From a phage: a stretch of 64,000 bases of DNA. The stretch lies in the NCBI GenBank assembly GCA_012474735.1, contig GCA_012474735.1_4085.1; one strand, given 5' to 3'. This document shows, in pieces, positions 61,730 through 62,695 of the stretch. The position numbers and the translations under genes are program-made. A model generated the notes under the pieces. That model worked only from the letters and a program-made list of their open reading frames with translations, was not told where the DNA came from and did no database searches. The stretch's first letter is position 1; the number at the start of each line of letters is the position of its first letter.

Positions 61730-62695
61730 TTAGAAATCTTCGTATTCGTACCCTTTTGCAAGTACTAACTTCTTAAGCTTTTGCATAGCTTCACTGTACT
61801 TTCGGTGTATTGATGAACGGGATTTAACATATTTTCCATTATCATCAACAAAACCATTATCAGCAATCTCACGAAGCGTTTCAGGTTCATATTCACCTAG
61901 ACCATGAACACGCTGGATAATCTCACGTTCTTTAGTACTCAATTCGTTAGTCAGTTCATTGATAGCATAACGTAAAGGTGCACGGATACTATCAACATTG
62001 AGGTTAAAATCAGAAGCAGGTGAATGAATAATGTCACCTAATGTACCATCTGTAACACCGTCTAATGGTGCATCCAGTGAAGTGTATTCGCTTTGAAATA
62101 ATAAACAATTATTAACATGCTGAATCTCAATCCCAGTACCCTCTGAGATTATTTCAGGTGTTGGGCGAACACCATGTTTACGCATATATTCCTGGCAGAA
62201 TCTTTTTACTTTGATCTTATGAACACTCATATAACGTGGGAAGTGTACCATATAGTTAGCGTCAGAACTTTCGTTATAGACTGTCATGTAAATACTAGAA
62301 GAAGCATAGGTAATGAACTTAACATTCTTATTAAGATCAAAGGTTTTTAGTGCTCTCATGAACCCCTCAACACCATATGAAATCTTATCTTCAAATGGGA
62401 TATAACAAGTACATTTACTTGCTACATCAATAATCAGTCCATAATTGTAACGAACTAACAGTTCAGTGTTTTTCTTTACATTGATACCAGCTTGAATATC
62501 ACGAATTAGATCTTCATTGGAAACATTTGGTGGTCGCTTAAGTGTAATATTATATTTGAAACTGCTTTGTACTTTACCTTCATTATCATCTTTATCTTCA
62601 ACGAAATCTAAGGCTTCTAGTGTGTTGACTTCTTCATTAGCAAAACATTCATCCAGAACTTCTTCGGCAATTGTATTTAAATCAAGCTTTTTCAC
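61730..62695 (-). CDS. sigma-70 family RNA polymerase sigma factor-like protein
   Basis: region-2-like LLVRYNYGLIIDVA...YGVEGFMRALKTFD...KFITYASSSIYMTV and region-4-like LSTKEREIIQRVHGL...TLREIA...IHRKYSEAMQKLKK. Confidence 0.55.
   Translation of the reverse strand: MKKLDLNTIAEEVLDECFANEEVNTLEALDFVEDKDDNEGKVQSSFKYNITLKRPPNVSNEDLIRDIQAGINVKKNTELLVRYNYGLIIDVASKCTCYIPFEDKISYGVEGFMRALKTFDLNKNVKFITYASSSIYMTVYNESSDANYMVHFPRYMSVHKIKVKRFCQEYMRKHGVRPTPEIISEGTGIEIQHVNNCLLFQSEYTSLDAPLDGVTDGTLGDIIHSPASDFNLNVDSIRAPLRYAINELTNELSTKEREIIQRVHGLGEYEPETLREIADNGFVDDNGKYVKSRSSIHRKYSEAMQKLKKLVLAKGYEYEDF

What the first reader, a model, noticed from the sequence alone, without database searches (positions are those of the whole stretch)
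61730..62695. Sigma-70-family sigma factor-like protein in a T4-like context
The 321-aa protein has recognisable region 2 and region 4 signatures. The T4 late sigma gp55 is, as I recall, a small divergent protein without region 4, so a full-length sigma-70-like factor here is unexpected and might drive the non-canonical promoters of the RCC1 array or the conserved 20-nt motif.
Basis: partly seen in the sequence, partly recalled or inferred. Interest (0 to 1): 0.65.

Follow-up and report, generated by a model that had tools for sequence, protein, structure and literature searches.

The report
Jumbo-phage sigma factor, already annotated
The gene really encodes a sigma-70-family transcription factor, but it belongs to a 350-kb E. 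coli jumbo phage in which this factor is already annotated; it is untested, and comparison between phages suggests it switches on the phage's middle genes.

Summary
The ORF (61730-62695, minus strand, 321 aa, GTG start) is real and is a sigma-70-family protein. Profile searches detect regions 2, 3 and 4. It matches PHROG 351 'RNA polymerase sigma factor' at 1.9e-60, and its AlphaFold model matches only sigma chains in the PDB.

The window is not T4. It is an Asteriusvirus jumbo phage (121Q/PBECO4/SP27/JP4, 98-99.6% nt identity). [quoted passage not shown] The same genome also encodes a separate gp55-like late sigma, so the premise that the gene is unexpected fails.

No experiment on this protein was found. 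New here:
- Every ortholog lacks the sigma-70 Trp433/Trp434 dyad.
- Every ortholog carries a 9-residue insertion in the region 4.2 helix-turn-helix.
- Promoters upstream of replication genes and of the gp55-like gene keep an invariant TGnTATAAT.
- Their -35 box is genus-specific and tracks the phage sigma's recognition-helix residues.

Best model, inferred: host sigma-70 makes this factor early; it then drives the middle promoters, giving a cascade sigma-70 -> RpoD-like sigma -> gp55-like sigma, with no MotA/AsiA. The RCC1-array promoters lack the box, so that proposed target is not supported.

The parts
63941..63969 (-). Host-type (sigma-70 consensus-like) promoter of the operon that contains the sigma gene: TTGACA-17 nt-TACAAT, with A-rich sequence upstream
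   Evidence: Consensus scan gives 11 of 12 matches; sequence read directly. Function is inferred.
63641..63901 (-). First gene of the operon, 86 aa, unknown function
   Evidence: ORF list; phrog_26969 of unknown function, no Pfam hit.
63216..63635 (-). Second gene of the operon, 139 aa, unknown function
   Evidence: phrog_37211 of unknown function, no Pfam hit.
62717..63214 (-). Third gene of the operon, 165 aa; weak similarity to HslV-family peptidases
   Evidence: phrog_24804 1.9e-103 (unknown function); phrog_1040 'peptidase HslV family' 9e-6. The ortholog is annotated HslV in fEgEco12.
62696..62706 (-). Ribosome-binding region: AGGAG (62702-62706), then an in-frame ATG-TAA start-stop pair (62696-62701) directly before the GTG start
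   Evidence: Sequence read directly.
61730..62695 (-). Sigma-70-family sigma factor gene, 321 aa, GTG start, TAA stop
   Evidence: Identical or 99% identical to annotated sigma factors of Asteriusvirus phages. Among close relatives, 19 differing codons are synonymous and 1 is nonsynonymous.
62630..62695 (-). N-terminal motif (aa 1-22, MKKLDLNxIxEEVLDECF), conserved across genera. A variable acidic linker follows (aa 23-54; the first 54 aa hold 14 D+E and 7 K+R). No canonical region 1.1 was detected.
   Evidence: Alignment A1; per-segment identity 42% for the motif vs 14% for the linker; aa 1-49 have pLDDT below 50.
62258..62533 (-). Region 1.2-like segment plus sigma2 domain (aa 55-146). F427, T429, Y430, A431, N383 and D403 are kept. 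W433/W434 are S/S, Q437 is M, T440 is Y, and Q406/E407/N409 are S/Y/V (E. coli sigma-70 numbering).
   Evidence: residue map; pLDDT about 80-90.
62096..62257 (-). Sigma3 domain (aa 147-200); H455 is Y and E458 is V
   Evidence: Pfam Sigma70_r3 above its gathering score.
61754..61981 (-). Sigma4 domain (aa 239-314), containing the helix-turn-helix
   Evidence: Pfam Sigma70_r4 partial match, aa 251-279; model pLDDT about 85-89; alignment.
61838..61864 (-). Nine-residue insertion (aa 278-286, ADNGFVDDN) in the turn of the region 4.2 helix-turn-helix. It is present in every ortholog and is modelled, with the following residues, as a small beta-hairpin.
   Evidence: Alignment with E. coli sigma-70 and sigmaS; DSSP strands near aa 282-290.
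61781..61822 (-). Region 4.2 recognition helix (aa 292-305, SRSSIHRKYSEAMQ). The equivalents of sigma-70 R584/E585/R586/R588/Q589 are R/S/S/H/R.
   Evidence: It is among the least conserved structured segments: 29% identity among four genera.
61701..61724 (-). Intrinsic terminator (10-bp stem, 5 G-C pairs, T-run) 5 nt after the stop codon; ends the operon
   Evidence: Terminator scan; also annotated in phage G17.
50490..50517 (-). The only 'class M' promoter in the window and a candidate target of this sigma: GGGACA-16 nt-TATAAT with TG at the extended -10 position. A late-type TATAAATA follows at 50448-50455, upstream of the virion-protein gene 50028-50411.
   Evidence: Pattern scan; corresponds to the JP4 hit at 87443-87470. 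Its assignment to this sigma is inferred.

Best explanation
This is an early-expressed, phage-encoded alternative sigma factor of a RaK2-like jumbo phage that has no RNA polymerase of its own. Shown: it is a sigma-70-family protein with sigma2, sigma3 and sigma4 domains. It is under purifying selection. It is conserved at full length across the clade. It sits in an operon with a near-consensus host-type promoter and its own terminator. Inferred, step 1: host sigma-70 holoenzyme transcribes the operon early in infection. Inferred, step 2: the protein replaces sigma-70 on host core RNA polymerase. Inferred, step 3: its modified sigma4 (recognition helix RSS.HR plus a beta-hairpin insertion in the helix-turn-helix) reads the box G(A/G)GACA placed 16 nt upstream of TATAAT. 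These 'class M' promoters lie upstream of primase, topoisomerase II, SSB, RNase H, the DNA-polymerase region and the gp55-like late-sigma gene. The result would be a cascade: host sigma-70 (early) -> this sigma (middle) -> gp55-like sigma (late, ATAAATA promoters). It would occupy the place that MotA/AsiA hold in T4.
For: Family and fold. Early-type promoter, RBS and terminator. No RNAP subunit, AsiA or MotA appears in the JP4 annotation, and no AsiA or MotA homolog is detectable (best E 0.45-1). Purifying selection: 19 synonymous vs 1 nonsynonymous differing codons. Three promoter tiers exist in the genome: consensus TTGACA/TATAAT early classes; class M with 20 hits vs 2.1 in shuffles, all on the coding strand and upstream of genes, one of them 58 nt before the gp55-like gene; and late (T)ATAAATA. 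Covariation: at orthologous genes the -10 (TGnTATAAT) does not change, but the -35 box is G(A/G)GACA in JP4, vB_Ec-M-J and SE_PL/7t3, GAAC(G/A)A in K64-1, and GAAACG in CBB and XbC2. CBB's box matches the published TGAAACG. The phage sigma residues at the sigma-70 584/585/586/588/589 positions are R-S-S-H-R (JP4), R-T-S-H-R (7t3/SE_PL), R-G-T-H-Y (K64-1) and K-A-T-S-R (CBB, XbC2). I predicted from the helix that 7t3-type phages (37.7% sigma identity to this one) would share JP4's box, and that was then confirmed. XbC2 keeps CBB's box although its host is Xanthomonas. The RpoD-like sigma diverges fast (35-44% between genera), while the gp55-like sigma stays at 73-78%. The recognition helix is among the least conserved structured segments.
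Against: No experiment exists for any member of this family. The class M -10 and extended -10 are the textbook sigma-70 element. The phage sigma lacks the sigma-70 residues usually credited with reading or melting it: W433, W434, Q437, T440 and E458. The covariation rests on three box types in about four deep lineages, so shared ancestry or another fast-evolving phage DNA-binding protein could give the same pattern. The beta'-contact residues Q406/E407/N409 are replaced (S/Y/V), so binding to core is assumed, not shown. That the hosts share the same sigma-70 region 4.2 is general knowledge and was not tested here.
Confidence: 0.5

Rival explanations
1. Sigma appropriation by another factor. 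Host sigma-70 reads the invariant TGnTATAAT of class M promoters. An unidentified, fast-evolving phage DNA-binding protein, working like MotA with or without an AsiA-like partner, reads the genus-specific box. The RpoD-like sigma would then serve a different, unidentified promoter set.
For: The class M -10 and extended -10 are a perfect sigma-70 element and are invariant across genera. The phage sigma lacks W433/W434/Q437/T440/E458, and positions 436/437 vary. An HTH transcriptional regulator sits just upstream of the sigma gene in CBB and XbC2. T4 is a precedent (asiA and motA annotation).
Against: No AsiA or MotA homolog is found in JP4 or in its annotation. The box sits at the -35 position with fixed 16-nt spacing, as expected for sigma4. 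Recognition-helix residues track the box, including one prediction made in advance. No other orphan promoter class was found for the sigma to serve.
Confidence: 0.25
2. Competitor or decoy. The protein binds host core RNAP, or another partner, mainly to displace sigma-70 and shut off host transcription. It would not itself direct efficient promoter melting.
For: Loss of the Trp dyad, which in sigma-70 stabilises the upstream edge of the transcription bubble (general knowledge); altered core-contact residues; early expression.
Against: Sigma3 and sigma4, including an elaborated helix-turn-helix, are retained across all genera. A decoy would not need these. Y430, F427, T429 and N383 are invariant.
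Confidence: 0.08
3. One reading: the sigma drives the non-canonical promoters of the RCC1-gene array, or a repeated 20-nt motif.
For: The array cassettes lack a sigma-70 -35 element and are highly repeated, so some non-host factor could be needed.
Against: The cassettes lack the G(A/G)GACA box. They contain TATTAAATA/TAGTATAAT at late-promoter-like distances from the ATG. The gp55-like factor is a simpler candidate. The repeated AGTACT-containing motifs of the terminal-repeat region sit in promoters with sigma-70-like TTGACA or TTGCAT and TATAAT elements.
Confidence: 0.07
4. A decaying or non-functional relic of a captured host rpoD or rpoS gene.
For: Scores fall far below the equivalog cut-offs for RpoD and RpoS; canonical DNA-contact residues are lost.
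Against: Full-length orthologs occur in at least 72 phage records (those where the match covers >=80% of the query) spanning at least six lineages. Differing codons are 19 synonymous to 1 nonsynonymous. The family shares conserved features of its own: the N-terminal motif and the HTH insertion.
Confidence: 0.02

Closest known systems
RpoD-like sigma factors of RaK2-like ('group 2') jumbo phages: 121Q gp167, PBECO4, G17_00146, JP4_CDS0143, RaK2/K64-1 gp304, CBB_513, GAP32 (PHROG 351)
   Same: It is this family. The protein is 99-100% identical to the Asteriusvirus entries and 35-60% identical, over its full length, to the other genera. It matches PHROG 351 at 1.9e-60. The family is described.
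   Different: Nothing differs at the gene level. The literature gives only the annotation. The Trp-dyad loss, the HTH insertion and the link to a promoter class are not mentioned in the papers I read.
Bacterial group 1/2 sigma factors (E. coli sigma-70 RpoD, sigmaS RpoS)
   Same: Same domain order: region 1.2, sigma2, sigma3, sigma4. It has no non-conserved region, like sigmaS. Best profile and structure matches are to these proteins. F427, T429, Y430, A431, N383, D403, G408 and P453 are kept.
   Different: Only 23-24% identical. It scores 88 bits against the RpoD equivalog-domain cut-off of 354, and 70 against the RpoS cut-off of 379. W433/W434 are S/S; Q437/T440 are M/Y; H455/E458 are Y/V; Q406/E407/N409 are S/Y/V. 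There is a 9-residue insertion in the HTH, and R588/Q589 are H/R. Region 1.1 was not detected.
T4 gp55 late sigma (with gp33 and gp45)
   Same: Both are phage-encoded factors that retarget host core RNAP.
   Different: It is not homologous in any useful sense. gp55-type proteins are minimal and lack sigma4. This phage has its own gp55-like gene elsewhere (JP4 329940-330779; phrog_234 8e-18), and late genes carry T4-like ATAAATA.
T4 MotA/AsiA middle-promoter system
   Same: The proposed role is the same: switch from early to middle genes at promoters that keep a sigma-70-type -10 but replace the -35 hexamer with a phage-specific box.
   Different: The mechanism differs. T4 remodels host sigma-70, whereas here a whole replacement sigma is proposed. 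No AsiA or MotA homolog is present.
Sigma cascades of other phages: Bacillus phage SPO1 gp28 then gp33/34; phiEco32 gp36 and phage 7-11
   Same: Host sigma transcribes early genes that include a phage sigma, which then redirects host core to the next gene class. Basis: general knowledge, plus the abstracts listed.
   Different: I did not test homology to these proteins. As I recall, they are smaller or ECF-like and do not combine with a gp55-type late factor.

Membership tests
Sigma-70 family (superfamily level) | Sigma2 domain (regions 2.1-2.4) | tested here: met
   TIGR02937 scores 44.7, above its 42.9 cut-off, and covers aa 80-309. Pfam Sigma70_r2 7e-5, 23.0 bits, 1 bit under its gathering score. 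Confident helical domain aa 55-146. Invariant F427/T429/Y430/A431.
Sigma-70 family (superfamily level) | Sigma4 domain with helix-turn-helix (regions 4.1-4.2) | tested here: met
   Pfam Sigma70_r4 3.1e-5, 23.8 vs 24.1 bits. The match is truncated at aa 279 by the insertion. Aligns with sigma-70 residues 572-599. Model pLDDT 85-89.
Sigma-70 family (superfamily level) | Overall fold matches solved sigma factors | tested here: met
   Foldseek against PDB: all 50 listed hits are RNA-polymerase/sigma entries, probability 1.0, 236-316 aligned columns. TM-scores are low (about 0.35) because the free model and the core-bound structures differ in domain arrangement.
Sigma-70 family (superfamily level) | Binds core RNA polymerase and confers promoter-specific initiation | not testable with these tools
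   Needs biochemistry. The beta'-contact residues Q406/E407/N409 are S/Y/V, so binding should not be taken for granted.
Groups 1-3 of the sigma-70 family (those with sigma3) | Sigma3 domain | tested here: met
   Pfam Sigma70_r3 2.1e-9, 37.8 bits, above its 25.3 cut-off.
Group 1 primary sigma (RpoD ortholog) | Reaches the RpoD equivalog score; region 1.1; Trp433/Trp434 dyad; canonical -10 and -35 contact residues | tested here: not met
   TIGR02393 scores 88 vs a cut-off of 354; NF004208 scores 64 vs 555. No region 1.1 hit. WW is SS; Q437M; T440Y; R588H; Q589R.
Group 2, RpoS-like | Reaches the RpoS equivalog score | tested here: not met
   TIGR02394 scores 70 vs a cut-off of 379. The architecture (no region 1.1, no non-conserved region) does resemble sigmaS.
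T4 gp55-type late sigma | Similarity to gp55 profiles | tested here: not met
   At E<=1 the protein matches PHROG 351 and five unrelated weak families; neither gp55 family (phrog_234, phrog_12791) is among them. A different gene in the same genome matches phrog_234 and phrog_12791.
PHROG 351 / RaK2-like jumbo-phage RpoD-like sigma | Full-length similarity, plus the family-specific N-terminal motif, Trp-dyad loss and HTH insertion | tested here: met
   PHROG 351 at 1.9e-60. Full-length tblastn matches in 72 records. The shared features are seen in alignment A1.
T4-type sigma appropriation (MotA/AsiA), considered as an alternative mechanism | Presence of AsiA and MotA homologs | tested here: not met
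   tblastn and phmmer --max of T4 AsiA and MotA against JP4: best E 0.45-1. Neither is annotated. Non-homologous analogs cannot be excluded.

The most novel reading that the evidence does not exclude
The RaK2-like jumbo phages run a three-tier sigma cascade: host sigma-70, then a phage RpoD-like sigma, then a gp55-like sigma. The middle factor is an unusual sigma. It has no Trp dyad and carries a beta-hairpin inserted into its sigma4 helix-turn-helix. It reads a -35 box that has co-diversified with its recognition helix between phage genera (GGGACA, GAACGA, GAAACG), while the -10 stays TGnTATAAT. That would be a natural set of orthogonal sigma/promoter pairs working on one host polymerase, and a replacement for T4's MotA/AsiA solution.
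Probability: 0.45. Interest if true: 0.55.

Novelty: already known. Interest (0 to 1): 0.33.

Why it matters
As stated, the finding repeats an existing annotation, so it adds little. It is useful in two ways. First, the transcription programme of the RaK2-like jumbo phages (121Q, PBECO4, RaK2, CBB and relatives, several of them phage-therapy candidates) has not been studied experimentally in the papers I could search. This analysis gives it a concrete, testable outline: three promoter tiers, two phage sigma-like factors, and named promoters to test. Second, if the covariation is real, the family offers several naturally diverged sigma4/-35-box pairs that act on the same E. coli-type core enzyme. 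That would interest people who study promoter recognition, and people who build orthogonal expression systems. It would also show how a sigma without the Trp dyad opens a TATAAT promoter.

Tried and rejected
(1) Searching the window for the published CBB motif TGAAACG-N10-20-TATAAT gave 0 hits. The box turned out to be genus-specific, so this search was uninformative for this phage.

(2) A loose sigma-70 promoter criterion (up to 2 mismatches in the -35, up to 1 in the -10) flagged 92 of 266 upstream regions. It does not discriminate in this AT-rich DNA, so I dropped it. The generic promoter scan around the gene found fewer sites than shuffles did: 20 vs 26.2.

(3) 8-mer enrichment in upstream regions was dominated by the early classes and by the duplicated terminal repeat. 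Direct inspection of replication-gene upstream regions was what revealed class M.

(4) The roughly 520-nt gene-free stretch downstream of the terminator (61180-61700) was tested as a possible structured RNA. There was no tRNA and no Rfam hit at gathering score. A permissive Rfam search gave only sub-gathering matches: two lie on the terminator and gene end (61692-61760) and one weak one (E 0.9) lies inside the stretch. The folding z-score was -1.29. I rejected it as a structured RNA on present evidence.

(5) Vibrio phage 2.275.O was meant as a fifth covariation point. It carries a different, canonical RpoD-like sigma (WW present, no HTH insertion), and its orthologous promoters have no -35 box. 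This is compatible with the model but does not test it.

(6) An internal control for ordinary TTGACA promoters in the other genera was under-sampled, because I fetched only their middle and late regions. For CBB I rely on the published RpoD-like early promoters.

(7) Pfam and PHROG searches of the co-transcribed and neighbouring genes gave no functional lead, apart from a weak HslV-like hit and an HNH endonuclease.

(8) Searches failed for technical reasons (file layout, time limit, range limit) and were repeated.
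Full report
OBSERVATION. The start is well supported. An AGGAG lies 6 nt upstream, the first in-frame ATG inside the ORF is at codon 113, and every annotated ortholog uses the same 966-nt frame. An intrinsic terminator (10-bp stem, T-run) begins 5 nt after the stop codon.

- Pfam Sigma70_r3 scores 2.1e-9, above its gathering score. Sigma70_r4 and Sigma70_r2 score 3e-5 and 7e-5, each within about 1 bit of theirs.
- NCBIfam RpoD_Cterm scores 6.3e-25, and the sigma-70 superfamily model TIGR02937 passes its cut-off.
- PHROG 351 'RNA polymerase sigma factor' scores 1.9e-60.
- phmmer against PDB returns 58 distinct chain sequences at E<=0.001, and every listed one is a sigma factor.
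- An AlphaFold2 model (mean pLDDT 70.9) has confident sigma2 (aa 55-146), sigma3 (154-200) and sigma4 (236-314) domains.
- All 50 listed Foldseek hits in the PDB are RNA-polymerase/sigma entries, nearly all sigma chains of solved RNAP-sigma complexes.

WHERE THE WINDOW COMES FROM. The 4 kb around the gene is 98-99.6% identical to E. coli jumbo phages of genus Asteriusvirus: SP27, JP4, 121Q, PBECO4, G17, phAPEC6, slurp01 and others, each about 350 kb. Many of these records already annotate the same protein as 'RNA polymerase sigma factor' or 'rpoD'. I assembled the closest well-annotated genome, JP4, from eight fetches. The window maps to JP4 73,959-141,000 in reverse orientation. Window 1-17.7 kb is the terminal redundancy. 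So the context is a RaK2-like jumbo myovirus with some T4-type core genes, not T4.

WHAT IS ALREADY KNOWN.
- The CBB paper describes the ortholog (CBB_513, regions 2, 3 and 4) in a predicted early region, together with a separate gp55-like gene. It predicts three promoter types: RpoD-like; a 'divergent' type with TGAAACG in place of TTGACA; and ATAAATA upstream of structural genes.
- Iyer et al. state that all 'group 2' jumbo phages encode sigma factors of two kinds, one minimal and one close to cellular RpoD.
- The Sharanji paper calls the RpoD-like factor a hallmark of group 2.
- Sokolova et al. say that RNAP-less jumbo phages usually encode recognisable sigma homologs that likely direct host core to phage promoters.
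- I found no experimental work on any member of the family.
The finding as stated is therefore already known at the annotation level, and the premise that the gene is unexpected does not hold.

THE LOCUS. Read on the minus strand, the unit consists of:
- a near-consensus host-type promoter, TTGACA-17-TACAAT, at 63969-63941;
- three small genes, two of unknown function and one weakly HslV-like;
- the sigma gene;
- the terminator at 61724-61701.
This is the layout of an early unit read by host sigma-70. That reading is inferred from sequence.

THE PROTEIN. I aligned ten orthologs from six lineages with E. coli sigma-70 and sigmaS, whose sequences I took from MG1655. I then mapped residues to sigma-70 numbering.

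The architecture is:
- an N-terminal motif conserved across genera (MKKLDLNxIxEEVLDECF);
- a variable acidic linker;
- a region 1.2-like segment (LIRDIQAGINV, compare sigma-70 IAKRIEDGINQV);
- sigma2, sigma3 and sigma4.
No region 1.1 or non-conserved region was found.

Kept residues: N383, D403, G408, F427, T429, Y430, A431 and P453.

Traits shared by the whole family:
- W433/W434 are replaced by Ser, Thr or Ala in every ortholog.
- E407 is Tyr and N409 is Val, Ile or Phe.
- E458 is Val in nine of ten orthologs (Arg in XbC2).
- A 9-residue insertion (aa 278-286 here) sits in the turn of the region 4.2 helix-turn-helix. The model shows it as a small hairpin.

The gene is under purifying selection among close relatives: 19 differing codons are synonymous and 1 is nonsynonymous. 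Between genera it diverges fast, at 35-44% identity. The gp55-like protein stays at 73-78% over the same distances. Region 2.1-2.2 is the best conserved segment (51%). The sigma4 recognition helix is among the least conserved structured segments (29%).

A SECOND SIGMA. JP4_CDS0688 (329,940-330,779) matches phrog_12791 'sigma factor for late transcription' at 3e-154 and phrog_234 'late sigma transcription factor' at 8e-18. It lies next to SbcD/SbcC (gp47/gp46-like) genes. Its C-terminal half aligns with the annotated gp55 of T4-like cyanophages. The phage therefore has both factors.

PROMOTER CLASSES.
- Early type. The window and the terminal repeat hold many consensus promoters of two architectures. 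Class A is TTGACA-N9-AGTACTG-TATAAT. Class B is AAAAAGTACTTGCA-N16-TATAATG.
- Class M. Inspecting the upstream regions of replication genes revealed a third class: an A-tract, then G(A/G)GACA, a 16-nt spacer and TATAAT, usually with TG at the extended -10 position. Genome-wide it has 20 hits against 2.1 in shuffles. All are on the coding strand and upstream of genes. The genes include primase, an exonuclease, topoisomerase II, SSB, the DNA-polymerase region and the gp55-like gene, whose promoter lies 58 nt upstream. The window contains one, at 50517-50490.
- Late type. Late genes carry (T)ATAAATA about 35-45 nt before the ATG.
- RCC1 cassettes. These consist of a terminator hairpin followed by TTTGTATTAAATATAGTATAATGAATAAAGGAGG. 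They have neither a -35 element nor the class M box.

COVARIATION TEST. I fetched the syntenic region, from the gp55-like gene to the primase, from CBB, K64-1, SE_PL (whose sigma gene is 100% identical to 7t3's), XbC2 and vB_Ec-M-J. At orthologous genes the -10 (TGnTATAAT) and the A-tract do not change, but the box does:
- JP4 and vB_Ec-M-J: box G(A/G)GACA; recognition-helix residues R-S-S-H-R.
- SE_PL/7t3: box GGGACA; residues R-T-S-H-R.
- K64-1: box GAAC(G/A)A; residues R-G-T-H-Y.
- CBB and XbC2: box GAAACG; residues K-A-T-S-R.
The residues listed are those aligned with sigma-70 R584/E585/R586/R588/Q589.

A count of each box at fixed spacing is almost perfectly diagonal. Each phage has 3-7 hits for its own box and 0-1 for the others (XbC2 is the exception: 3 own, 2 for the related GAAC[GA]A). 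For the four phages that were shuffled, shuffles gave at most 0.4. I predicted from the helix that 7t3-type phages would share JP4's box, and only then checked. XbC2 keeps CBB's box although its host is Xanthomonas.

The enterobacterial hosts share sigma-70 region 4.2. This is established knowledge and was not tested here. A conserved, genus-specific box at the -35 position therefore points to a phage-encoded, fast-evolving reader, and the phage sigma's region 4.2 is the obvious candidate. T4 AsiA and MotA have no detectable homolog in JP4 (best E 0.45-1), and neither is annotated.

MECHANISM. Most likely, in my judgement, host sigma-70 transcribes the operon early. The protein then replaces sigma-70 on host core. 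Its sigma4 reads the class M box and so switches on the middle genes. These include the gp55-like late sigma, which then serves the ATAAATA promoters.

Shown:
- family membership and fold;
- conservation and purifying selection;
- the three promoter classes and where they lie;
- the covariation between box and helix.
Inferred:
- the timing of expression;
- binding to core;
- which class the sigma reads.

Main weaknesses:
- The class M -10 is the textbook sigma-70 element, yet the phage sigma lacks the residues that read or melt it in sigma-70.
- Positions 436/437 vary between genera (YM or RQ) while the -10 does not.
- The covariation rests on three box types in about four deep lineages.
The chief rival is therefore a MotA-like arrangement. 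In it, host sigma-70 reads the -10 and some other phage protein reads the box. The other rivals are a decoy role, the RCC1 cassettes as the target, and a non-functional relic. They are less likely, for the reasons given under each.

COMPARISON AND NOVELTY. The protein belongs to the sigma-70 family and to the RaK2-like phage sigma family (PHROG 351). It is not an RpoD or RpoS ortholog: the equivalog cut-offs are missed by a factor of 4-5 and defining residues are absent. It is not a gp55-type factor either. In proposed function it resembles the middle-gene sigma gp28 of Bacillus phage SPO1 (general knowledge; abstract), and it would fill the niche that MotA/AsiA fill in T4. The finding as given is already known. 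The residue-level peculiarities and the box-helix covariation did not appear in the papers I could read. They are hypotheses that need biochemistry.

DEAD ENDS.
- The gene-free 520 nt downstream of the terminator shows no sign of a structured RNA.
- The Vibrio jumbo phage 2.275.O has a different, canonical sigma and box-less promoters, so it did not test the model.
- Loose sigma-70 scans were uninformative.

Noticed in passing
whole window; also JP4 genome and loci L013, L014, L020: The palindrome AGTACT is strongly over-represented. The window has 274 copies against about 22 expected. JP4 has 1048 against 125 (8.4-fold), by far the top palindromic hexamer. Orthologous regions of CBB, K64-1 and SE_PL show a 5-7-fold excess. 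It occurs in all three reading frames (406/170/251) and is denser in non-coding DNA (5.9 vs 2.5 per kb). It also sits at fixed positions in the early promoters and in terminator hairpins. This looks like a clade-wide DNA-level signal whose reader is unknown. I found no paper that mentions it.
   Followed up: partly
JP4 genome (applies to the window's genome type): At least eight palindromic hexamers are completely absent from the 370-kb genome: CTCGAG, CCATGG, AGGCCT, AGCGCT, CCCGGG, CCGCGG, CGGCCG and CGCGCG. The expected counts are 9-34 each. This suggests strong avoidance of restriction sites.
   Followed up: no
window 1-17700: This part corresponds to the roughly 20-kb terminal redundancy, which is assembled twice inside JP4 at about 123.6-143.7 kb and 143.7-163 kb. 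It is packed with very small genes. Many have their own 'class B' promoter (AAAAAGTACTTGCA-N16-TATAATGTTTTA), often with a second TTCAGTACTGAAAACTATTTT site about 35 nt further upstream. Class B promoters occur only here.
   Followed up: partly
window 61180-61700 (minus strand): About 520 nt directly downstream of the sigma terminator have no convincing ORF and a higher G+C content than their surroundings. A possible extended -10 (TGATATAAT, about 61670-61680) precedes the stretch, and a TTGACA-17-TAGAAT promoter for the next gene (61171-61143) follows it. JP4 annotates only tiny ORFs here. There is no tRNA, no Rfam hit at gathering score (only weak sub-threshold matches), and the fold z-score is -1.29.
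   Followed up: yes
window 62696-62701 (minus strand): An in-frame ATG-TAA 'start-stop' pair lies between the Shine-Dalgarno sequence and the GTG start of the sigma gene (AGGAG ATG TAA GTG). It could modulate translation initiation.
   Followed up: no
window 22915-35174 (plus strand): This is the array of about 400-aa RCC1-like paralogs. Most copies are separated by a conserved cassette: a hairpin GCCAGTAC-nnn-GTACTGGC with a T-run (a terminator built from AGTAC half-sites), then TTTGTATTAAATATAGTATAATGAATAAAGGAGG and the ATG. Copy number and order differ between the window and JP4, and array segments are only 84-99% identical.
   Followed up: partly
window 50448-50517 (minus strand): A class M promoter (GGGACA-N16-TATAAT) and a late-type TATAAATA lie in tandem upstream of one virion-protein gene (50028-50411). 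This suggests expression in both the middle and late periods.
   Followed up: partly
JP4 329808-329940 (outside the window): The class M promoter of the gp55-like gene overlaps, on the opposite strand, a late TATAAATA promoter of the divergent baseplate and structural operon. This is a compact divergent middle/late control region, and its position is conserved in CBB, K64-1, SE_PL, XbC2 and vB_Ec-M-J.
   Followed up: partly
window 59852-60640 (minus strand): An HNH endonuclease gene (phrog_35175, 7.7e-188) lies three genes downstream of the sigma gene. Several HNH and homing endonucleases are scattered through this genome.
   Followed up: no
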